Assembly: GCF_009914755.1 (NCBI RefSeq)
Contig: NC_060925.1
Reading direction: 5' to 3' (one strand)
Source of the DNA: the human T2T-CHM13v2.0 reference genome, Homo sapiens
DNA: 64,000 nt
Shown: piece after piece, positions 27,745-64,000 of the stretch
Layout: each line of letters starts with the position of its first letter
How positions within the stretch are numbered: the stretch's first letter is position 1
Program-made: the position numbers and the translations under genes
The notes under the pieces: generated by a model
The model's database searches: none
Told to the model about the DNA's origin: nothing
Seen by the model: the letters and a program-made list of their open reading frames with translations, nothing else

Positions 27745-30700
27745 CAGGGGAACAGTTTATATCTTTGGAAACAGACAGTCAGAACTTGGGTCTGAAGCCA
27801 CATAGTTATAGTGAATGCCTGTGAAATGGAGATGATAATAAGACTACTTGTAAGCCACTGTGAGAACGAAATGAGACAACAATGTACAGAAATACCTGAA
27901 AGATAATATGGTTCATGACATTGCATATATCACACTAGTTCTCTTCAGTTCCTTCCCATGTGCAGTCAACACCTCTATGCAAAGGACCGGGGACAGCTTC
28001 CCTCTTTAAAGTGAGATGCAAAACAGCCCTAGTGGAGAGTCTCTTGGCTTGCCTGTGGCTAGACTCTTCATTCCCCACATACAGCTCACTCTGTTCCTCT
28101 GAGATACTGCCCACTGTGGACCAGGAATCCAGAGTGGAAACATCGCAGTCTCCATGACAATGTGAAGACATGATTCTAAGGAGCCCCTTCCTAGAAGAAA
28201 ATGAAAACCTGGCTATTAAAGGCTGAAAGTAAAATTTCCCCTTGGGTGATGGAGCTAGATGGAGAGGAAGAAGAGGAATTCTAGGTTCTGCCACTGAAAA
28301 GGGAATCTGAACACAGCCATGGCAATCAGCTCTGGTGTCTGTGCCAAGGGCCTCTGATAACCAACCCAGTCGGTCTAAAGAAAATCATTAATGTCGCCTT
28401 TCTTGTCACTTTACTTTCTGCTGTGTCACCACAGGAGGCTGCATTTATTGGCAATTATTTTGTTTTCTTTTGGCACAGTTACAGGGAGGGAGAGAGGTGA
28501 AAAGGAGAGAGAGGCCCCAAGACACAGTGGTCCAGTTAAATGTCAGCTTGGCATGGAACAGACGTGCTGGTGAAGTAGAAAAGATATAGATAATTGCCTA
28601 ATGATTCTGGCAAGAAATATGCATTTCTCTCAACAGAGAAAAGACAACCATGGCCCACCACTCCCTCCCCACAAAGACATCCACAGAATGGTCAGTGTGA
28701 GAGCCTGTGTGCCCCAATACGCCATTTGCCTTCCCTCTACCTTCTCCAAATTATCATGCTGAATTACGGGGGCCTCACACAGGCAGCCCCCATACCACCT
28801 GAACACTGGTCTGCTGGGACTCAGAATGTGACGATCTGCCTAGATTCAGGACACAGCAGGTTGGGCCACACCTGCTGGCCTCCTGCAGGACTCCTGCCCC
28901 TCCTTGCTGTCAGACCAGGACCAAGTGTGCAGCCCTTCACTCCTGTCTACAACACGGTGGCTCAATCCACTTCACTGGCCTCTGCCTCATCCCCTGTTCC
29001 TGAGTTCTTATAAATGGTCTTACCTTGTACTCAACCCCAGCCTGACCCTGATTCCAAACTCAAGGTCTTCTCACCCTTGTCTCCTTGCCATTCCTCTCCT
29101 CTAAGCTCAGAGGGGAGCCCCTACAGCTTCTCGGTGGCAATGCTAGGCTGGCTGGACCCCTAGCAGTGGCAGTCATGAAATTTTGCATCATTTGGCCCCA
29201 CATGCCATATGCTGATGTTTCATCAGCTTCTGGTACTGTTTCTAGAATTGTGAATGTGGCCACCAAACCCAGCAGCTGGTGTATCTGACCAGCCCCGTGT
29301 AGAACTAGCTCTGTTCCTGGTTCAATCCCACAATCCAGTCCCAGGTCAGCACCAACTCCCTCCTCTGCCCACCTGCTCTAGACCATCTTGACCTTCCCTT
29401 TCAAGAAGGCGCCCAAAGGTACCACTCTGCAGATTTCAGACTTGTACCTAGTAGTCTGGGACTCCCACAAGGCGAAGTTCCCCCTCATACCCGTGTTTCC
29501 TCCATAAAGTAGCAAGTGAGAAAGCCCCAGGATTAACAATGTCATACAAACCTCGGTAGCACTGCCCTCTAGGGGCCCGAGTGAGCCCCCTTCTCCCACA
29601 GAGGTCCTGACACCAGGGCTCTTGTGCGTAGGAAGTCCGTCCTCTGCCCAGAGGTGGAGTGGCTTTATCCTTGTTGCAGACTGTGCCCTAAGCCCAGTTC
29701 TGGCTATCAGTTCTCATCAGTGTCAGGAGATAGGAAGTCCTGTTCTCTCCCAGGCTGATGCTCTCAGGCCAGCATGGTCACAGGGCTGGCGCATGGGCCT
29801 GACCCGGTCCTCTGGTCCTCGCAGTTCGCTCTCCCTCTTCCTACAGGGCCTGCACCCCTGACTGTGTGTCTGAGTCCGTAAGTCTAGGCCCCTGTTCTGG
29901 TTTCCATTGCTGAGGTCCTGCCTGCCCAGTGCCCCATCCCCTGTCATTCTGGCCCTGCTCTGCCTGTTCCTGCCTGACTTCCAGAGCCCTGAGCATGGTG
30001 TTGGAACTCAGGTCAGGGCTGCAGTCTGGCTATGTGCAGCTCTGGGCCACATGATGCTGCCTGCAATATGTTAAAATGTCACCTGCCCTAGACCGTCTAT
30101 GGCTGCATTCCAGCCACCTTTTGTAGCCCACCATTCCTTAACCCTGGACCCTTAATTTCTAAGTGTCCTTGGACTATAATGAGAAACATCCTACTTCGTT
30201 GTCAGATGGACCCCTTCTCTCTCAGTCAATCCCCACCTCTCCCCCCGCCCCCAAGCTGGCCCAAGCTCTGCCCTGTGGCCTGCCTTGCTGTAAGTTCCAG
30301 CTAAACTGTATTGGATGCTGACCTAGGATGAAAATACCTGTCCTCACATTAATTCTCACATTACCCCAATGGGGCAATCAGTGCAAAATTTAAGTTCTCC
30401 AGCTCTTTCCACTTTTAGTAGTGTATTTTATTTTTAACATGAAGCAGGTATTAGAAAAGGAGATACTTCACTTAACCTTCTGAGGAGGGTCCAGGCTTGA
30501 CCTAAGGGCCATTCCTCAGTAGTCCCAAATCCCTCAGTTTTGGAGGGCCCACTGAAAGAGCAGTCAGTTTATTTCATCATCATGGCCGGGGGAGCACTTT
30601 ACACATTTCATGTGGAAATGCCACGTGCGGTCATCTCAGAAAGGCCTCGGCTTACCGTTAGCGTTATCGTTTCTACCACTGAACACTCAGCACCCTCAGA

Positions 30701-31843
30701 GGGTTAGATGGGATTACTGGGCAGAAGAGATAAGCCCTGCTCCCAGTGGGAAGGCTCATGTGTTAGTATATTTACTGCTTTGTCCAAAACTCCTGGGCTT
30801 CTTCCACTGCTGCCTGGCTGGGATTGTTCAGCCCACAGCTAGAGACTTGGTGATGACCCCAACGGAGGCCTGTGTGAGTGCGCACCGACACAGAACAGCT
30901 CTGCTTCCAAAGGTGGGTCTTAAAGGCCTGAAACTTGATGTGAGTGGAGGACTCGTAAGCCCCCTGCTAAGGACTGGCTCTCTTGTCTGATACTTTCCCA
31001 CTTTCCTTCTCCAGTCATGGTGGTTTCTGCCCATCCCTCTGATCTGCCTCCCTTTTTTCTGAATTATCTGTCTGCTGTCACACGTCCGGAAAGAGAGCAG
31101 CTCTCCTGTGAGCATGCATTGTGATGATGGGGCAGTAGGTTGAAAGGCCTGTGAGTCACCTCCCTACCCTGGCCTCAGTTTCTTCATCTGTAAAATGAAG
31201 AATGCTGGACCAGACATACTTTAAGGTCTCTTTCAAGTAGGAGTTCTTCGCTGTTTTTGGGCCATGGATCCTTCTCAGAATAATGTTTTAAAAAGCATTA
31301 AATAAAATATAAAAAGTGACAAAGGAAGCCAGCTAAGCAGAAATGCTGTTCCACCTCTGTGGATCCCAGGTGCAGAGCCAGCGCTCTGCTTTAATATGAG
31401 GTAATGAGGTCATGCTCTGAGATTCTCACAGTAACCTAGAGCAGCAGGGAGTTAAGATGCAAGGCTTGCATACCCGAAGCAACTAGCTGTGTGATTCTGG
31501 GGCGGTTACTCCGTTTTCTTGCACCTGTTTCCTCAATTAAAAAATGGAAACAATACCCCTAATCTCACAGAGTCAGAGGGGATTCTCAGAGTCAGCACTC
31601 CATTAATGAAGGCCGCCCTCCTCCCAGTTTATAGAAAGAAAACTTAGTTGGAGAAAGTTTCAGTGTCTTGCTTACAGCCATTTAGTGGTTAGGAACAAAA
31701 AACCAGGCTTGCAGCCCATGTATTCTTAACTCTTAATCTAGGGCTCTGTCCCTATCCCAAGGGCTGAAGCGCAGCTCTCCTGGATCCTTCCGGGAGAGGA
31801 ATGTCACTCCTGGCCTCCCACACGGCCCTCTTCTTGTGATCTG

Positions 31844-33869: not shown

Positions 33870-34163
<294 letters not shown>

Positions 34164-45231: not shown

Positions 45232-45500
45232 CCTCTGGGTCTGGTTGTTGGTCACTAGTTCATAGATGGGGGCTGCTTTGGTCACCTCCAGCAGAACCGG
45301 CTCAGCAGGGGTGTCAGGGCTGGATGTCACATGACACAGGGGGCAGGACGAGGGGCATCGTCCCTTGCTCTGGCACTCCATGCGGACTCCAGCCGCCATG
45401 CGCTTGGTGCCGGAGTCTGACAAGCTGGTGATGTATTCTGGGAATGTCAGCACCTTGGGGTCTCTTTCCCGCTCCTCAGACTCATCTGATGGGGAGTTGC
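45232..45500 (-). CDS. ASTN1: ASTN1 coding exon (probably exon 17), [10 protein letters not shown]...VTNNQTQR; C-terminal part of the MACPF region
   Basis: Translation matches the ASTN1 protein as I recall it. Acceptor ctgcag|GC at 45501/45500, donor AGG|gtaaga at 45232/45231. Length 269 nt (2+267). Confidence 0.97.
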
Positions 45501-46477
45501 CTGCAGACACAAAATGGAAAGAAACAGTGAAGGAGTCAAAAAAGTAAGGACTATCATGACCTCGTGGCCCCTGAGTGCTGGGGTCCAATCTTTGGGATCA
45601 GAAACAGCCACTGAAGGGGTAAGAATGTGATTCTGCCATCCCACTTAATTTGGGGCACCCAACCTCCCAGCGACACACAGAGTTGGAAATGGCCCTTTTC
45701 AGTGAGAATCTAGGTTGTTCCTTTTCTGAGAATCATCAGCTCCACTGAATCTCTAGAGGGATCGGGCTCCATGCTGATGACCCTCAGCAAGAATACAAAC
45801 CATAACAGTGATTGTTCTATGACTCAATTTCTTCATCTATGAAGTAAAGATACGAATAGTATCTATGTCTAGCATTGGGTAATGAATGAATGGCAATTCC
45901 TTTTATAAAGCACATAACACAATGGCTAGCACATGGCAAACCATCATCATAATAGTTTTAATTATAAATATAGCTAAGATTTAGGAAGCCTGTACTATAA
46001 AAGTGAGATCCATTCAAGGTCTACTTTAACCTTTATGATAACTCTCTGCATGGCGTTCTATCATTATACTCAGTTTATAGATGAGGAAAATGAGGCCAAG
46101 AGCTTCAAGGTCCCACAGCTAGTAGATTGTGAGAGCTGGGATTTGAATCCACTTTTGTCTGATTCTTAAGTCTTTTAGGTCAGAGAGGAAGAAGAATAGA
46201 ACTCTGCTTCATTATTAATCAATGTATTGAAGATGGGAAGGGAATTTTGACTTTTTCAAAAAGATTTGCACTCCAAAACTTGAGAGATGGGTCCACATCA
46301 ATTTTGTTTGTTGAGTAAAGGATAGTTAAAGAATCTTTTGGTCTACTTTTGGTGACAAACATAGGAATTGCCTACCAGAGAATAATGGTTTGTTCTTTAT
46401 ACAAGAAAGCACTGCTTGGCATTTCTCTTCCCAGTCCTCATGATTCTCCATTTAACTTATTAATTCTAAAGGAAGAT

Positions 46478-47647
46478 TGAAGTAGTGTTTGCTGACAAAA
46501 AAGCACTGGGTTTCTGAGATTCATCACTTCTTTTTGCACAGTTGTAGTCCTGAATGTGAAACAGCTTCAGAGAGACCACTAAGCTTTTGGACATCCTGGA
46601 TATATACAGGACATTCATTCTGGCCCTCTCAGACTCATGAAGAATGCAATGGACAATGGGCTGGACCTTTGGAGGCACTGGTTGGAAGGATTTTTAAAGT
46701 GGTACCCGAAGGTGATTGTAGATATGACTCATCGACTTTATAAAAGAGTTCTCTCTTATGGGGTCCAGGGAGCTCTTTGTGATTCCCTTCTTGTTTGCTA
46801 TGTAATATGAGCCCATTTAGAAACATCACGAGGCATTTCAGCATTGTTGTTTCCCAGAGGAAACAATGAGGAAGTTTTACCTAGCACGTTAAGGCAAAGG
46901 ACTCTATGACTATAAATATGGCATATAATTCATCGCATACTTGCATTTTGTTTAATAATCGACCCAGAGCCAAGCTCAAACCCTTCCTTGATTATAAGAG
47001 AACTGTATAACTACTCAAACCAAAAATAAGAATGACGGCTTCAAATAGAACTAGCCCTCAAATCACTTCACCCATGACTAAATTTTCACTGACAGGGAGG
47101 CTTACGCAACCCAGTCAACTGTGTGGCTACGGGTATTTGCAAAGTGGCCACAAGCTGACCCAAGACTCCCCCCTCCTCCAGCCCCTCACCAGGCCCCCAA
47201 TCTTTTTCAATATACTGTACGGATTGGGCGGAGCGAGTGCGGGTGGGGTGAGGTCTTTGATCCTTGGTGTGATTTCTGGGCAAACAGCCCTTCATTAATG
47301 CCTCATGGCATTTCTAAATGGGCTCATATTACATAGCAATCAAGAACAGAATAGCAGAGAGCTCTCTGCACCCCATAAGAGAGAACTCTTTTTATGAAGT
47401 CGATGAGTTGTAGCTCATAATCACCTTCTGGAACCACTTTGCAAATCCTTACAACCAGTGCCTCCAAAGATCCAGCCTATCAAGCATCACATTCTGATGA
47501 GTCTGAGAGGAACAGAATGAGTGTTCTGTGTGTGTCCATCATTCCCCAAAGCCCAGTGGTCTCTCTGAAGCTGTTTCATGCAATGTATGGAAAAGGGCTC
47601 AAGCATTTCAGAAACCCAGTGCTTTTTTGTCAGCAAACTCTACTTCA
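46478..47647. repeat. Long imperfect inverted repeat: arms 46478-46837 and 47297-47647, 459-nt loop
   Basis: Hand alignment: a 43-bp block with 2 mismatches, an internal loop of 36 vs 26 nt, then a ~281-bp block at ~83% identity. Perfect runs of 31, 24, 23 and 29 bp. Confidence 0.95.
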
Positions 47648-47664
47648 TTAAGAAAGTAAGTAAA

Positions 47665-48040
<376 letters not shown>

Positions 48041-48632
48041 TTATTGAAATTTCGCCATGCAAGTCTTGCCAGAGGGCTTGAGGGTCTCCTGGTTGGCTCT
48101 TACCCACCTTCTAATTATACGCATTTCCTTACTGACCCGCAGCCCTCCTTGTTGAGAATTTGTTCGAGTCTGGGAAAAGAATTTCCACGACATGACCGCT
48201 AGATGGTGATATAAGTCTAAAATGACTTTCGTGAGCGGGAGGAAAAAAAAATGGATAAATCTCACTTTGGCACTGTAGAAAATAAACTATGAAAAAGTAA
48301 CACACGGCTACTTTAAAAAAATGTTGTGGAGGTACAATTTTTCTTTAACCGGAGAATAAAAAATTAGAGACTAAAACAATTCCGTAACATTTACCCGACA
48401 GAGAAAAATATAGAGGGGCATAGATGATGACAGGATAATTAAAGGAAAATTAAATTCCGAAGGGAAAATAACCCCTACCCCCAATATCCTTAACATGGAG
48501 TAAACACTACTTCAAAGGGGAAGTAATATGCCACCAGTGCCTTTTCTCGCACCTTAAATCCCCAAATACCCAGGCATGCTCCCCACGCCCCCTCCTCTCA
48601 TTACTAAGCATGTACCGTGCTCATGACAAATG

Positions 48633-54383: not shown

Positions 54384-54812
54384 CTCTTAGTTTCCTAGGG
54401 CTGCTATAACAAACCATCAGCAATTGAGGCACTTAAAACAACAGCATGCATTCCCTTCCAGTTCTGGAGTCTTCAAGTTCAAAATCAAGGTGTGGTCAGG
54501 GCCATGCCCCCTTTGAAAACTCTAGGGAAATATCCTTCTTTGTGTCTTCCCAGCTTCTGGTGGCTCCCAGCTGTCCTTGGCACTCCTTGGCTTATAGCTG
54601 CCTCACACTAATCTTGGCCTCAGTTATCACGCGGCTTTCTTTTCTGTGTGTCTGTGTCCAAATCTCCCCCTCATTTCTCTTATAAAGACACTAGTCGTTG
54701 AAGGTAGTCTAGGGTCACCTCATCTTAATGTAATTACATTTGCAAAAACAGGTCACATTCTGAGGTTCCGGGCAGGCATGAATTTGGAAGGACACTGTTC
54801 CAGCCACGACAG
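54384..54812 (-). mobile_element. MLT1 (MaLR) LTR
   Basis: ttagtttcctagggctgctataacaaa...aaatcaaggtgtggtcagggccatgc...ggtcacattctgaggttcc. Confidence 0.8.
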
Positions 54813-56789
54813 TGTCCATAGCCTTTAACATTGTGGCACTGGCGGGAGAGCCCTTCCCTGACCCACAGCCTGTGAGGACTCACTTATTGGCCATGTAGGG
54901 GCTTGCAGTCCATCCCCTCAGCTTCCTCCCAGGGCTTAAGGGCAGTGGGAAGTGAAAAGAAGTTCCCGGCTCCATCGGCGTCCTGCTGCCGAGCAGCAGC
55001 TGTGTGCAGCTTCTTGTCAAAGTCAAAATAAACCTGACATAGAGATTCGGAGTCACAGCTCCGGGATGTGGAGATCTGTGCTGGATTATCCCTGCTGTGT
55101 CGCCACAGACAGAGCAGCATGGGGAGAGGGAGTGCGGGGAGAGGACGACACTGAGAGAGAGGCGAAAATGAGGAACACCTGCGGGATTTGCTATTTCCAA
55201 ATCTCCATTAGCAGAAAGACAACGTGAATGAGTGGGCATGCTCAGCACGCTGCCAGGAAAGAGCCTCCCGTGCACTTGTCTGGAGATTAAGGCTTCCTCC
55301 GCGCCCCCAGCCTTGTTCCTGCTTGGGAGGCTGAGCTGAGAAGCCAAGTGTGCATCCCCAGACCACTCAGGAGCAAATGCTTCCCATCTTTCCTGGTCCT
55401 CCCAAAGAAGGAGCCTGGAAAGCTCTCAGGAATAGCCCAGGACACGGCAACTGTGGCAGAGCAAGACCGAGGCAGAGAGCGTGCTGAGGAAGGGGCGCCC
55501 AGCATCAGCCTGGACCTCGGCTGATGTTGAAGGCCCCACTGAGCTACAGAGTGGAATTAGTGCTGCTTTTCTCTATCTACCCTGCGGCATTTATTTCTCC
55601 AATAGGGAGTGCACATGAGTCCCTTGAGTTTGGGCAGAACCATCAGCCCAGCAATGCTCTCTTTATGACTCCATTTACCTCTCAGAGCACCCCTGCGTGC
55701 TTATCTGTTCTCCACCTCTCCTTCCCTATAAGATCCAGCTCCTGCCTCAACATCTCTCTTTTCTTCCTACCTTCAAATCTGGACAAGAAGAGCACAGGGC
55801 AGGGAACACCTGGATAGTTCTACAAAGGGTAAAACTGACAAACTGCCATTACTTGCCCCAGCTCCACAGTACAAACACTCAGCTGAATGTTACAACATGA
55901 CCTGTGTCTGTGTGAGGGTGCCTGATATGAGTCTATGCAGGCGGGTGTCTCTCACAGCTTAGGCAGCACCATAGCGGAAAATTCAATGCCTTGCTGAGAT
56001 GCTGCAAAGGCTGGCTCATAAATATCTTTAACTACCAAATGGTCTAGAAATTTTTAATAAAAATATTATTCAATAATAATACTACTCCAACCGGCAAGGG
56101 AATGTTGTAAGAGTCTCCATTTTCCTCTGGACACTCATCTGGCTTCTGTTTTTAAAATGGATTTGGATGTTAAATCCTCTTGCTGCCCTGACCAATTTAT
56201 TCTGCAAATTAACTATATCTGACAGAACTTAAAGTCCGTTACCATTTAGCTTTGCCTCACTGAAATTTATGCTGCTTCCCTGCCTGCTGGAGCCACAGGC
56301 CCAAATAGACATGGCTCTTGGTGGCGATTTGGGATTCTGCACGGTTCTCTCACCGCTTAGTCCTCATCTCTTGAGTTTTAAAATGTGCTGAGTGGATCAG
56401 GCTCTTTTCACCTCTCGGTGACCTGTGCCCTCTGTTTTAAAATACTCTGGTCTCTGCAGCTGCCTCTCCCAGCCTTAATGAAGCTTTCATTACGAGATGT
56501 GGTTTCACCCAGAGCTGCAACCCAAACTGGTTGGTGAGGGAGATTCATGTGGCTCTGACTGGGTTGCAGTACCATTCGCAAATGGTACAGACAGCTGGAC
56601 ATGGAAGGAAACAAAGGGGACAAAAGGAAGAGACCAGTGATGTGAGGGCCATGGCCACTAGGCCGAGGGATGGATCTCAGATTGAATTAAAAGAGCCTGG
56701 TGACTAAGGTGACACAGAGAAATGGTGCTGTGGCAAGCCATATACCAGCAGTTGGTTTACCTCTGGGTGCCTCAAGCTGAGAGTGACTC

Positions 56790-61219: not shown

Positions 61220-62720
61220 CAGTCACACATTGCTTAATGACAGGGACACATTCTGATAAATGCATCATTAAGTGAGTTCATCATCAATGCGTACATCACA
61301 GAGTGTCTTCACACAAACCTAGATGGTATAGCCTGCCACACACCTAGGTATATGGTGTAGCACAGGGGTCCCCAACCCCCAGGCCATGACTGGTACCAGT
61401 CCATGGACTGTTAGGAACCGAGCTGCACAGCAGGAAGTGAGCGGTGGGTGAGAGAGCATGAACACCTGAGCTCCACCTCCTGTCACATCAGCGGTGGCAT
61501 TAGATTCTCATAGAAATGCAACTCTATTGTGAACTGCACATGCAAGGGATCTAGTTGTGTGCTTCTTATGGGAATCTAATGATAAATGTAATGCTCTTGA
61601 ATCATCCCCAAACCATCCCCTCTGACCTGTCCATGGAAAAATTGTCTTCTATAAAACCCGTCCCTGGTGCCAAAAAGGTGGGGGATCACTGGTGTAGCAT
61701 ATTGTTCCTAGGCTATAAACCTGTACAACATGCTACTGTACTGAATTCTGTAGGCAATTGTAACACATGTAAGTATTTGTATGTCTAAACATAGAAAAGG
61801 TACTGTAATAACATGGTATAAAAAGATAAAAAATGGTCCACCTGTAAAGGGCACTTACCGTGATTGGAGCTTCCAGGACTGGAAGCTGCCCTGGGTGAGT
61901 CAGTGGGTGAGTGGTGAGTGAATGTGAAGGCCTAGGGCATTACAGTACACTCCTGCAGACTTTAGAAACACTGGACACTTAGGCTACACTAAATTTACTT
62001 TTGTTTTTCTTTCTGCAATAATAAATTAACTTTAGCTTACTATAAGTTTTTTACTTCATAAACTTTTTAATATTTTAAATGTGTTCACTCTTTTGTAATA
62101 ACACTGAGCTTAAAACACAAATTGCACAGCCATATGAAAATATTTTTTCTTTATACACTATTGTATATGCTTTTCTCTATTTTTTAAATTTTTATTTTTT
62201 TATTTTTTTTACTTTGTAAACTTTTTTGTTAAAAACGAAGACACAAACAAATACATTAGCATTGTTTTCCACCTCCATATCTTGTCCCACTGGCAGGTCT
62301 CTAGGGGCAGTAAGATGCTTGGAGCTGTCATCTCCTGAAATAACAATGCCATCTTCTGAACTACCTCCTGGAAGACCTGCCTGAGGCTGTCTTACAGTTA
62401 ACCTTTAAAAAATGAGTACACTCTAAAATAATGATAAAAAGCATAGTATCAGAAATATGTAAACCAGTAACTGCCATTTATTATCAGGTATTACGTACTG
62501 TACATAATTGTGTGTGTTAGACTTTTATACGACTGGCAGCGCAGTAGTTTTGTTTACACCAACATTACCACAGACATGAGAGTGACGCATGATGCTGTAA
62601 CATTACAATGGCTACATCACTCAGTGGCAGAAATTTTTCAGCTACATTACGATCTTATGGGACCACTGTCATATACGTGGGCTTGCATTGACCAAAATGT
62701 TGTTATGTGACAAATGATGG
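61220..62720. mobile_element. Tigger3/Golem-family non-autonomous DNA transposon
   Basis: Left end cagtcacacattgcttaatgac...ttctgataaatgcatc; internal acacaaacctagatggtatagcct; right end gaccaaaatgttgttatg. Confidence 0.85.
61363..61691. mobile_element. MER1B (hAT-Charlie) nested in Tigger3
   Basis: TIRs caggggtccccaacc / ggtgggggatcactg; perfect 8-bp TSD gtgtagca at 61355-61362 and 61692-61699. Confidence 0.9.
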
Positions 62721-62854
62721 TGCTCTTTAATAAAATATCAAATAAGGACCAGATTATATCAGGAGACGTATGCAAGGGAAGAATCATTGAGAAGGAAGCT
62801 TTTGGGATAGGCTCAAGGATACAGGCATCTTTAATAACAAGAGCTACCATCTAT

Positions 62855-63183
62855 GGTGGAAGTCAGCAAACTTTTTCTGTAAAGAATCAGATAGGAAATA
62901 TTTTTGGCCATGCAGTCTCTGTTGCAACTACTCAACTGTGCCTTTGTAGTGCAAACACAGCTATGGGTATTATGTAAACAAATGCACATGGCTCTGCTTC
63001 AATAAAACATTATTTATGGATGGTAAAATTTATTTATGATGTTCATGGCACATAATATTGTTTTTCTTTCTTAGTTTTATCTTTCAATCATTTAAAAAGG
63101 TAGAACCCATTCTTAGCTTGAGGGCCATATAAAAACAGGTAGCAGACCAGATTTGCCTGCAGGTCATAATTTGCTGACCCCTG
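62855..63183. mobile_element. MER58 (hAT-Charlie)
   Basis: gtcagcaaactttttctgtaaag...ctgttgcaactactcaact...tttgctgacccctg. Confidence 0.8.
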
Positions 63184-64000
63184 ACTGTTCATTAAAAATA
63201 AATGCTTTAGTATACCCATTCTCATTGAATTCTTAGACCTGCTCTTTGAGGCAGGTATACTCATTTCCATTTTCTAGATATCCAAGATGAAGTTTAGAGA
63301 ACTTAGGTCATACGGATTTCAAAGGCCTTTCTTTTAACCACTAAGCTATACTACCTCCCATAATGGTAAGGAACACAGGGGGATGGTGGAATGAGTAGGT
63401 TTTCTTTAGCCAAAGGAATTTAAAAATCTAAAAGTAGTTTTAACAAAGAATATGAGGCTTGCTATCATGGCTTTCTCATAGCAAGCTCATTTTAGATCTC
63501 TGCGATTACTACATTCTCTGTTTTCACAAGTCAAGCACAGGAAAGATATAATGTTAATAAGCTCTACTTTTCAGAATATAATATTCCCCCATATTTGAAG
63601 AAAAAAGAACAGCCTTCTAGCATTTGTTCCAACTTCTCTCCACCATCCATGATCCCACGGAAGGTCGTGCCCACCCCTGCAGGTAACAGGTATGCTTGAA
63701 GATCTTGCTCTCCCCTGCTGGAAGATCAAATTCTATCAAAGTTGCCCATTTCTCTCTTTCCTTCTCTCACTGATTTAAGCAACAATTCTCTCTTACTTGG
63801 CTTCCTTGCTTTCTTCTTGTTTAAAGGTAATTTTATGTGTCAGAGAGAATGGAAGGAAGACAGGGGTTGCCATGTTCTCTCCATTACCTATTAAGATTAC
63901 AGGAGGTGGTGATTTCAATTCTTCTTTGGTCCTCTTCTTTCTCTAAACACAGCTAAAATGTCCTTTATACTGTCTGTGGGTTTTTTCACAAATGTAGGAT

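What the first reader, a model, noticed from the sequence alone, without database searches (positions are those of the whole stretch)
46478..47647. ~320-bp intronic dsRNA stem from an inverted repeat of no recognisable repeat family, ~1 kb upstream of an ASTN1 splice acceptor
Seen: arm 46478-46837 is the reverse complement of arm 47297-47647 around a 459-nt loop. Perfect blocks are gtttgctgacaaaaaagcactgggtttctga (31 bp), tgaaacagcttcagagagaccact (24), aaaagagttctctcttatggggt (23) and ttgctatgtaatatgagcccatttagaaa (29), separated by mismatch clusters. There is one 36/26-nt internal loop. By hand count, of ~47 substitutions about 13 become G-U pairs and about 16 become A-C mismatches on the ASTN1-sense RNA, so there is no clear strand bias. 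I see no Alu, L1, MER or Tigger similarity, TIR or TSD. Established: long imperfect stems with A-C mismatches are preferred ADAR substrates, and long hairpins can feed Dicer or alter splicing. Inference: the pattern of old divergence plus intact 20-30-bp blocks suggests a structure maintained by selection or gene conversion. Candidates are a neuronal hyper-editing substrate, an endo-siRNA source, or a regulator of the acceptor at 45500. It may already appear in comparative RNA-structure screens; I cannot check.
Basis: partly seen in the sequence, partly recalled or inferred. Interest (0 to 1): 0.85.

Follow-up and report, generated by a model that had tools for sequence, protein, structure and literature searches.

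The report
Old single-copy inverted duplication in ASTN1 intron
A stretch of about 375 bases in an intron of the brain gene ASTN1 was copied backwards next to itself long ago, so the gene's raw transcript can fold into a long imperfect hairpin, but nothing in the sequence shows that this hairpin has been kept for a purpose.

Summary
Window 46478-46858 is the reverse complement of 47275-47647 around a 416-nt spacer. Identity is 82.5% over 349 aligned positions, with 61 substitutions and 4 indels (self-BLAST E 1.9e-85). Perfect blocks of 31, 29, 24 and 23 bp exist. Neither the arms nor the spacer has another copy in the T2T human genome by BLAST or by a two-arm profile. There is no Rfam or Pfam hit, no intact reading frame and no target-site duplication. 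It is therefore a local inverted duplication and not two repeat copies. K2P distance of 0.20 between the arms suggests roughly 45-85 My, using recalled rates. The ASTN1-sense RNA is predicted to form a stem of about 296 pairs (-465 kcal/mol against -205±5 for a shuffled arm). The inference of selection or gene conversion is not supported. The block pattern mostly disappears once adjacent mismatches count as single events (p=0.03 and 0.26). The longest identical run is not exceptional (p=0.08). The sense strand carries 13 G·U against 21 A·C. The stem lies 978 nt from the exon-17 acceptor, too far to mask the branch site or pyrimidine tract. Conservation, editing and small RNAs could not be tested here. 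Verdict: a real but probably neutral intronic dsRNA-forming duplication, of low to moderate interest.

The parts
46478..46858 (-). Left arm of the inverted duplication, which is the 3' arm of the hairpin in the ASTN1-sense RNA. The core is 46478-46840. Homology is weaker over 46841-46858.
   Evidence: 82.5% identity to the reverse complement of the right arm over 349 aligned positions. The outer boundary at 46478 is sharp.
46859..47274 (-). Spacer, or loop, of 416 nt. It is unique sequence with a G+C-richer patch at about 47100-47260.
   Evidence: no other copy in the genome; the fold of the loop alone is no better than shuffles (z = -0.19). G+C is 0.50-0.55 at 47000-47299.
47275..47647 (-). 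Right arm of the inverted duplication, which is the 5' arm of the hairpin in the ASTN1-sense RNA and is transcribed first.
   Evidence: The outer boundary at 47647 is sharp, and an Alu starts 19 nt further on.
46517..46557 (-). Mismatch-rich block with a 10-nt indel, opposite about 47578-47608. It is the one large internal loop of the stem.
   Evidence: alignment columns 40-80; internal loop in the minimum-free-energy structure.
45232..45500 (-). ASTN1 exon 17 of NM_004319.3, given for context. Its acceptor at 45500 is 978 nt from the left arm.
   Evidence: The inverted repeat lies in intron 16 (45501-84807, 39.3 kb).

Best explanation
This is an ancient, single-copy, local inverted duplication. 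A unit of about 375 bp of unique intronic sequence was copied in reverse orientation about 0.4 kb away, most plausibly by a replication or repair template switch (the mechanism is inferred). The two copies have since drifted apart roughly neutrally to 82.5% identity. Both copies lie in intron 16 of ASTN1, so the nascent pre-mRNA can fold into an imperfect hairpin of about 300 pairs, with uninterrupted helices of up to 31 bp. Such a stem is expected to be bound and promiscuously edited by nuclear ADARs in neurons, and then discarded with the intron lariat. That expectation rests on established ADAR substrate rules and is not shown here. No dedicated function is indicated.
For: Shown: the inverted repeat is real. 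The arms and spacer have no other copy in the 3.1-Gb reference, either by BLAST at E up to 10 or with a sequence-only profile of both arms, whose best non-self hit has E 0.18. There is no Rfam family in 45500-48500 apart from the flanking Alu. None of 9 ORFs has a Pfam hit reaching its curated cut-off (one weak sub-threshold match, E 0.031), and both arms have stops in the frame read across them (frame 1). The outer boundaries are sharp and have no matching flanks (columns 1-18: 4 of 18 identical). The decay looks neutral. K2P is 0.20, transitions to transversions are 34:27, and 2 of 3 left-arm CpGs read TpG or CpA in the right arm. The longest identical run has p=0.08. Block clustering has p=0.03 and 0.26 after adjacent mismatches are collapsed. 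The sense strand has 13 G·U against 21 A·C. Folding: the sense RNA of 1221 nt has an MFE of -588.5 kcal/mol with the full-length stem. The arm duplex is -464.8 kcal/mol with 296 inter-arm pairs, against -205±5 for 30 shuffled-arm controls. Context: a genome-wide prediction paper reports about 0.49 million non-repetitive predicted dsRNAs in the human genome, of which 4,597 are edited on both arms (PMC11838218, passages read), so the class is known.
Against: No orthologous mammalian sequence was available, so conservation and covariation, which are the decisive tests of neutrality, were not done. If mismatches are treated as independent, the four perfect blocks of at least 23 bp are unexpected (p about 2e-4). 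After collapsing, a residual p=0.03 remains, so some heterogeneity of rate or constraint is not excluded. Template switching is usually documented for much shorter inverted copies (PMC5453318, search listing and abstract only; 10.1101/2021.04.15.439925, passages), and no clean microhomology junction could be shown. The profile search scored only 149 of 23,770 first-look candidates. Dfam and RepeatMasker were not available. The RefSeq soft-mask covers only 4.7% of the window, so a very old low-copy repeat inside the duplicated unit cannot be excluded.
Confidence: 0.62

Rival explanations
1. The hairpin is a selected RNA structure. It would be maintained as a neuronal ADAR-recruiting or hyper-editing element, a source of hairpin-derived small RNAs, or a modulator of intron 16 processing.
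For: The stem is very long and stable in the sense RNA. Four perfect blocks of 23-31 bp are unexpected if mismatches are independent (p about 2e-4), and p=0.03 remains after collapsing. The host gene is neuronal. A dsRNA-prediction preprint reports that conserved predicted dsRNAs are enriched in synapse and neuron-projection genes (PMC11838218, passages).
Against: G·U does not exceed A·C on the sense strand (13 against 21), and the antisense strand would fold better (-496.7 against -464.8 kcal/mol). The block signal mostly vanishes under an event-based null. The same preprint reports that conserved dsRNAs are short (median 65 bp) and weakly structured, unlike this stem. Described editing inducer elements are 81-149 nt long and 45-220 nt from the edited site in the rows visible (PMC5654063, passages), whereas this stem is 978 nt from the exon. 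ASTN1 does not occur in the main text of that paper (0 occurrences). Full-text searches for ASTN1 with 'A-to-I' (2 papers, judged unrelated from title and abstract start only) and with 'endo-siRNA' (0 papers) found nothing.
Confidence: 0.1
2. It is an older inverted duplication whose arms have been partly homogenised by gene conversion. The true age would then be greater than the 20% divergence implies, and the perfect blocks would be remnants of conversion tracts.
For: Inverted repeats with short spacers are classic substrates for intrachromosomal conversion (established knowledge, recalled). Mismatches are clustered.
Against: The longest identical tract is only 31 bp (p=0.08 under shuffling). 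That is shorter than typical mammalian conversion tracts (recalled). No long tract of identity stands out in the alignment.
Confidence: 0.12
3. It is a relic of a single non-autonomous DNA transposon with terminal inverted repeats of about 375 bp, from a family that left no other recognisable copy.
For: Both outer boundaries are sharp, and the termini lie within the best-preserved 40 bp. The overall architecture is arm-spacer-arm, 1170 bp in total.
Against: Copies of a family of the same age would be about 80% identical to this one and easily found, yet none was. The flanks show no target-site duplication of 2, 8 or 9 bp at the homology boundaries; only a trivial 3-nt match appears if the boundary is shifted by one base (read). 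There is no transposase remnant. The termini do not resemble the superfamily ends I recall; this is recall only, since no repeat library was available.
Confidence: 0.06
4. It is a duplicated cis-regulatory DNA element, such as an intronic enhancer copied in inverted orientation. The perfect blocks would then be constrained protein-binding sites at the DNA level and not RNA pairing.
For: Identity between the arms is blocky. The intron is repeat-poor by the RefSeq mask. RefSeq lists enhancers elsewhere in the window, at 30653-30797 and 54559-55552.
Against: No RefSeq functional element overlaps 46478-47647. The block signal is weak under an event-based null. No motif or chromatin data were available.
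Confidence: 0.05

Closest known systems
Non-repetitive intramolecular dsRNAs predicted genome-wide (dsRNAscan catalogue, PMC11838218)
   Same: Two complementary arms lie within one transcript, in an intron of a protein-coding gene, and do not overlap a recognisable repeat. The spacer of 416 nt is close to the 509-nt median loop reported for edited non-repetitive dsRNAs.
   Different: The stem of about 300-350 bp is much longer than the reported medians for non-repetitive dsRNAs (75 bp unedited, 144 bp edited). I could not check whether this locus is in their tables, because supplements are closed.
Inverted Alu pairs (IRAlu), the main human ADAR substrates
   Same: The stem length (about 300 bp), arm identity (about 80-87%) and intronic location are all similar. 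Alu pairs in this same window are 77-89% complementary.
   Different: The arms here are unique sequence, not SINEs. The signal recognition particle RNA matches that mark Alu fall only at 47666-47946, outside the arms. The two arms descend from each other, not from two independent insertions.
Template-switch mutations and inverted duplications that create hairpins de novo (PMC5453318; 10.1101/2021.04.15.439925; 10.1101/2023.04.19.537475)
   Same: A reverse-complement copy sits next to its source, creating a perfect stem in one step which then decays.
   Different: The events discussed in the passages and abstracts I saw are bases to tens of bases long, whereas this copy is about 375 bp. Junction microhomology could not be shown after 20% divergence.
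Editing inducer elements (PMC3479170; PMC5654063)
   Same: A long intronic stem-loop in a neuronal gene, near an exon, and prone to hyper-editing.
   Different: Described elements are 81-149 nt with 32-54 bp, lie 45-220 nt from the edited duplex in the rows visible, and are conserved. This stem is about 6-9 times longer in base pairs and 978 nt from the exon. I found no ASTN1 recoding site in the searched literature.
Hairpin RNA (hpRNA) endo-siRNA loci of Drosophila and mouse oocytes (recalled, no paper read here)
   Same: A long inverted-repeat hairpin transcribed as a single RNA.
   Different: Those hairpins yield abundant 21-22-nt RNAs in cells with a suitable Dicer. No small-RNA data could be examined here, and the stem is intronic, in a gene expressed in somatic neurons.

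Membership tests
Interspersed repeat or DNA transposon with terminal inverted repeats | Multiple related copies elsewhere in the genome | tested here: not met
   Searches (BLAST, E up to 10; two-arm profile; best non-self hit E 0.18; only 149 of 23,770 candidates scored): the only matches are the two arms to each other.
Interspersed repeat or DNA transposon with terminal inverted repeats | Target-site duplication flanking the element | tested here: not met
   Flanks read: no 2-, 8- or 9-bp duplication at the homology boundaries. The 9-mer direct repeat (D4) has its first copy inside the arm, because extends homology to 47275.
Interspersed repeat or DNA transposon with terminal inverted repeats | Match to a curated repeat consensus (Dfam or RepeatMasker) | not testable with these tools
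   No repeat library was on hand. The region is unmasked in the RefSeq soft-mask, but that mask covers only 4.7% of the window.
Interspersed repeat or DNA transposon with terminal inverted repeats | Transposase or other coding remnant | tested here: not met
   none of 9 ORFs reaches a Pfam cut-off (one 14.4-bit match against a cut-off of 27), and there are stops in both arms.
Inverted Alu pair dsRNA | Both arms are Alu elements | tested here: not met
   the SRP-like matches lie only at 47666-47946; only query positions 1198-1261 (the Alu edge) hit other loci.
Known RNA family (Rfam 15), including miRNA precursors | Covariance-model match at or near the gathering score | tested here: not met
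   no match within 46478-47647 at E up to 1.
Non-repetitive intramolecular dsRNA | Complementary arms within one transcript, not overlapping repeats | tested here: met
   stem in the sense RNA; unique sequence; both arms in intron 16.
Non-repetitive intramolecular dsRNA | Evidence of formation in vivo (A-to-I sites on both arms) | not testable with these tools
   No RNA-seq or editing database was available. A full-text search for ASTN1 with 'A-to-I' gave 2 papers, judged unrelated from title and abstract start only.
Editing inducer element | Lies within a few hundred nt of a site-selectively edited duplex | tested here: not met
   The stem is 978 nt from exon 17. Published elements in the rows visible lie 45-220 nt away. 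ASTN1 does not occur in that paper's main text (0 occurrences).
Editing inducer element | Sequence and structure conserved between human and mouse | not testable with these tools
   No other mammalian genome is reachable.
hpRNA / endo-siRNA locus | 21-23-nt small RNAs mapping to both arms | not testable with these tools
   No small-RNA data were available. A search for ASTN1 with 'endo-siRNA' found 0 papers.
Template-switch or local inverted duplication | Reverse-complement copy adjacent to its unique source | tested here: met
Template-switch or local inverted duplication | Microhomology at switch points, and an outgroup with a single copy | tested here: inconclusive
   The inner boundaries are blurred by divergence, and no outgroup genome was available.

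The most novel reading that the evidence does not exclude
The hairpin is not drifting. It would be conserved across placental mammals, kept pairable by selection, with the perfect 23-31-bp helices as the constrained core. It would act in neurons as a long-range ADAR-recruiting or dsRBP-binding platform, or as a rare somatic hairpin-RNA source, that tunes processing of the 39-kb intron 16 of ASTN1. That would make it one of the longest non-repeat, functionally maintained dsRNAs in a human gene.
Probability: 0.07. Interest if true: 0.65.

Novelty: new member of a known kind. Interest (0 to 1): 0.22.

Why it matters
If it is only a drifting duplication, it matters little. It is one more intronic dsRNA, unusual mainly because its roughly 300-bp stem is built from unique sequence and not from Alu. 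That does make it a clean, uniquely mappable reporter for nuclear ADAR activity on long dsRNA in ASTN1-expressing neurons, because reads from it would not suffer the multi-mapping problem of Alu. It is also a natural example of a hairpin created in one step by inverted duplication. If orthologues showed constraint on pairing, it would be a rare long, non-repeat, conserved dsRNA in a neurodevelopmental gene and worth a deletion experiment.

Tried and rejected
Repeat-family origin. I ran a whole-genome BLAST with the full element, with the left arm and with the spacer. I also built a sequence-only profile from both arms (model R1). Only the two arms match each other. The other hits all fall on query positions 1198-1261, the edge of the flanking Alu. 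The non-self hits have E of 0.18 or worse. I rejected this origin, with the caveats that 149 of 23,770 candidates were scored and that no Dfam library exists here.

Known RNA family. The Rfam E-value scan of 45500-48500 gave 5 matches, 4 in the Alu and 1 at 46044-46141 (E 0.36), none in the arms or spacer.

Coding remnant. Twenty-two ORFs of at least 30 aa overlap the region. I scanned 9 of the 22 against Pfam at E up to 1. One gave a sub-threshold match (14.4 bits against a cut-off of 27) and the rest gave nothing. Translations of both arms are full of stops.

Target-site duplication. A 9-mer direct repeat at both ends of the right arm (D4) looked promising. Its first copy, however, lies inside the weakly homologous inner end of the arm, so I rejected it as a clean duplication.

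Structure in the spacer. The spacer folds no better than shuffles (z = -0.19; 41 of 100 shuffles fold at least as well). Only short, chance-level internal repeats were found.

Selection from block pattern. The signal is significant only under an independent-site null. Strand bias of wobble pairs is absent, and if anything reversed. From recall (Green et al. 2003, not read here), transcription-associated A-to-G excess on the coding strand would by itself favour G·U on the sense RNA, which makes the lack of such an excess more telling.

Literature. No paper was found whose main text links ASTN1 to an intronic inverted repeat, A-to-I editing or endo-siRNAs; the papers holding the terms were judged from listings, apart from one passage read. 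The supplementary tables of the dsRNA and editing catalogues are closed and could well list this locus. The ASTN1 mention I checked in PMC6165225 concerns an unrelated lncRNA name.

Full report
1. THE OBSERVATION

- The repeat finder reports five collinear inverted pairs that together cover 46478-46855 and 47279-47647, at 82-86% complementarity.
- A BLAST of the region against the whole reference returns 46478-46837 against 47297-47647 on the opposite strand, at 80% identity and E 7.4e-84.
- A more sensitive self-comparison extends weaker homology to 46858 and 47275 (384 columns, 79.4%, E 1.9e-85). I therefore set the arms at 46478-46858 and 47275-47647, with a 416-nt spacer.
- A MAFFT alignment of the left arm with the reverse complement of the right arm, trimmed to the core, has 288 identical positions, 61 substitutions and 13 gap columns in 4 indels, one of them 10 nt long. 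That is 82.5% identity, with K2P distance 0.20.
On the ASTN1-sense RNA the 34 transitions give 13 G·U and 21 A·C.
- All other inverted repeats of at least 45 nt in the 64-kb window are Alu pairs.

2. WHERE IT LIES

- ASTN1 is on the minus strand.
- In NM_004319.3 (23 exons) the exon at 45232-45500 is exon 17. The preceding exon 16 is at window-relative 84808-84996, so intron 16 spans 45501-84807, or 39.3 kb.
- The acceptor is a good pyrimidine tract followed by cag|gc.
- The hairpin occupies the last 1.0-2.15 kb of the intron. Its nearest edge is 978 nt from the acceptor.
- In the pre-mRNA the right arm is made first, then the spacer, then the left arm.
- An Alu (47666-47979) begins 19 nt beyond the right arm and is not part of the repeat.

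3. WHAT IT IS NOT

Not a multi-copy repeat:
- The whole element, the left arm alone and the spacer alone each find only themselves in the 3.1-Gb reference, apart from the arms finding each other, even at E up to 10.
- A sequence-only profile built from both arms finds the two arms (E 1e-104 and 1e-101). The next best hit has E 0.18, although only 149 of 23,770 first-look candidates were scored.
- The age argument matters here. Two arms that are 82% identical are each about 10% from their common ancestor. Other copies of a transposon family of that age would be about 80% identical to them and easy to find.

Not a known RNA or a coding remnant:
- No Rfam family matches inside the arms or spacer.
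- None of the 9 ORFs tested (of 22 listed) reaches a Pfam cut-off.
- Both arms have several stops in frame 1, the one frame read across each.

No transposon signatures:
- The flanks outside the sharp outer boundaries are unrelated (4 of 18 positions identical).
- I found no target-site duplication.
- A 9-mer direct repeat at the two ends of the right arm (D4) has its first copy inside the weakly homologous inner part of the arm.

Caveat: no repeat library was available. The RefSeq soft-mask leaves the region unmasked, but it covers only 4.7% of this window, so it is weak evidence about old repeats.

4. WHAT IT IS

The simplest reading is a local inverted duplication of a unit of about 375 bp of unique intronic DNA, placed about 0.4 kb from its source.
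- Replication or repair template switching is the known way to make a reverse-complement copy next to its source and so create a perfect hairpin in one step. The supporting papers are PMC5453318 and 10.1101/2023.04.19.537475 (listing and abstract only) and 10.1101/2021.04.15.439925 (passages).
- The events described there are mostly much shorter. After 20% divergence I could not demonstrate junction microhomology, so the mechanism is inferred, not shown.
- With K2P 0.20 between the arms (0.10 per arm) and recalled human-lineage neutral rates of about 1.2-2.2e-9 per site per year, the event would be about 45-85 million years old, provided there has been no conversion and no constraint.

5. IS IT MAINTAINED?

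I tested this with the information available inside the locus.

(a) Block pattern.
- Shuffling mismatch positions as independent sites gives four or more blocks of at least 23 bp in only about 0.02-0.04% of shuffles.
- The 61 substitutions and 4 indels fall into only 42 separate events, because many mismatches are adjacent and one region is a complex indel block.
- With each event counted once, the same statistic has p=0.03 and the sum of squared run lengths has p=0.26.
- Dropping the complex block as well gives p=0.33 and p=0.06.
- The block pattern is therefore largely a by-product of clustered multi-base changes.

(b) Conversion tracts. The longest identical tract, 31 bp, is reached or exceeded in 8% of shuffles, so no conversion tract stands out.

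(c) Wobble pairs.
- If pairing in the ASTN1 RNA were selected, transitions should preferentially survive as G·U on the sense strand.
- The opposite trend is seen: 13 G·U against 21 A·C (binomial p=0.23).
- The antisense strand would fold better than the sense strand. The arm duplex is -496.7 against -464.8 kcal/mol, and the full 1221 nt gives -608.3 against -588.5 kcal/mol.

(d) CpG decay. Of the three CpGs in the left arm, two read TpG or CpA in the right arm, the ordinary fate of methylated CpG.

None of this proves neutrality. Identity between the arms cannot distinguish compensatory change from no change, and only orthologues can. Still, the internal evidence gives no support to selection.

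6. WHAT THE RNA WOULD DO

- The sense RNA of 1221 nt folds with the full-length stem at -588.5 kcal/mol.
- The two arms alone form 296 inter-arm pairs (283 Watson-Crick and 13 G·U), with uninterrupted helices of 31, 31, 30 and 26 bp. The energy is -464.8 kcal/mol, against -205±5 for 30 controls with one arm shuffled.
- The spacer has no structure of its own beyond chance (z = -0.19).
- By established ADAR substrate rules, which favour long and largely double-stranded RNA, such a stem in a neuronal pre-mRNA should be promiscuously edited in the nucleus and then degraded with the lariat. This step is inferred.
- At 978 nt from the acceptor, the stem cannot occlude the branch site or the pyrimidine tract.
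- Described editing inducer elements are 81-149 nt long and 45-220 nt from their target site in the table rows visible. ASTN1 does not occur in that paper's main text, and only the first rows of its 23-substrate table were visible (PMC5654063, passages).
- The stem is intronic and nuclear, so cytoplasmic sensors would not normally meet it (inference).

7. COMPARISON WITH WHAT IS KNOWN

- The class is known. A genome-wide prediction reports about 5.1 million human dsRNAs. About 0.49 million are non-repetitive, and 4,597 of those are edited on both arms, with a median length of 144 bp and a median loop of 509 nt.
- The same study reports that conserved dsRNAs are short (median 65 bp) and rarely edited (PMC11838218, passages).
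- This locus would sit in the long tail of the non-repetitive class. It resembles an inverted Alu pair in size and identity but is built from unique sequence.
- Full-text searches linking ASTN1 to an inverted repeat (3 papers), to 'A-to-I' (2 papers) or to 'endo-siRNA' (0 papers) turned up nothing relevant. I judged the five hits from their listings, plus one passage read.

8. VERDICT

- The thing is a single-copy, old, local inverted duplication that lets the ASTN1 pre-mRNA form a long imperfect hairpin.
- The suggestion that it is maintained by selection or conversion is not supported by any internal test, but it remains formally open until orthologues are compared.
- I rate it a new member of a known kind, with interest 0.22.
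- The most novel reading still allowed is a conserved, selected long dsRNA in a neuronal gene. I give that about 7%.

Noticed in passing
window 47666-47979 and 33892-34152: The Alu 19 nt outside the right arm is inverted relative to an Alu in the intron after exon 19 (149 nt at 87% and 111 nt at 84% complementary, I1 and I5). The pair brackets ASTN1 exons 17-19. This geometry is generally associated with back-splicing into circular RNA (recalled).
   Followed up: no
window 47290-47298 and 47643-47651: An exact 9-mer direct repeat sits at the inner and outer ends of the right arm, as part of a 26-nt, 73% direct repeat (D4). It looks like a target-site duplication or a switch-point microhomology, but the first copy lies inside the weakly homologous inner end of the arm.
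   Followed up: partly
window 1-64000: The RefSeq soft-mask covers only 4.7% of this 64-kb window, in 13 intervals that are mostly Alu-sized. Either this part of ASTN1 is unusually repeat-poor or the mask misses old repeats. In either case 'unmasked' is weak evidence.
   Followed up: partly
window 47100-47260 (inside the spacer): A G+C-richer patch (0.50-0.55, against about 0.37-0.44 around it) contains a short imperfect local inverted repeat, 47184-47202 against 47235-47253, 74% complementary (I1). The spacer as a whole folds no better than shuffles.
   Followed up: partly
window 45458-45500 and 62189-64000: Two Gnomon non-coding ASTN1 transcript models end inside this region. XR_008486049.1 ends with a 43-nt last exon (45458-45500) that uses the exon-17 acceptor. 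XR_008486050.1 has a terminal exon at 62189-64099 within intron 16.
   Followed up: no
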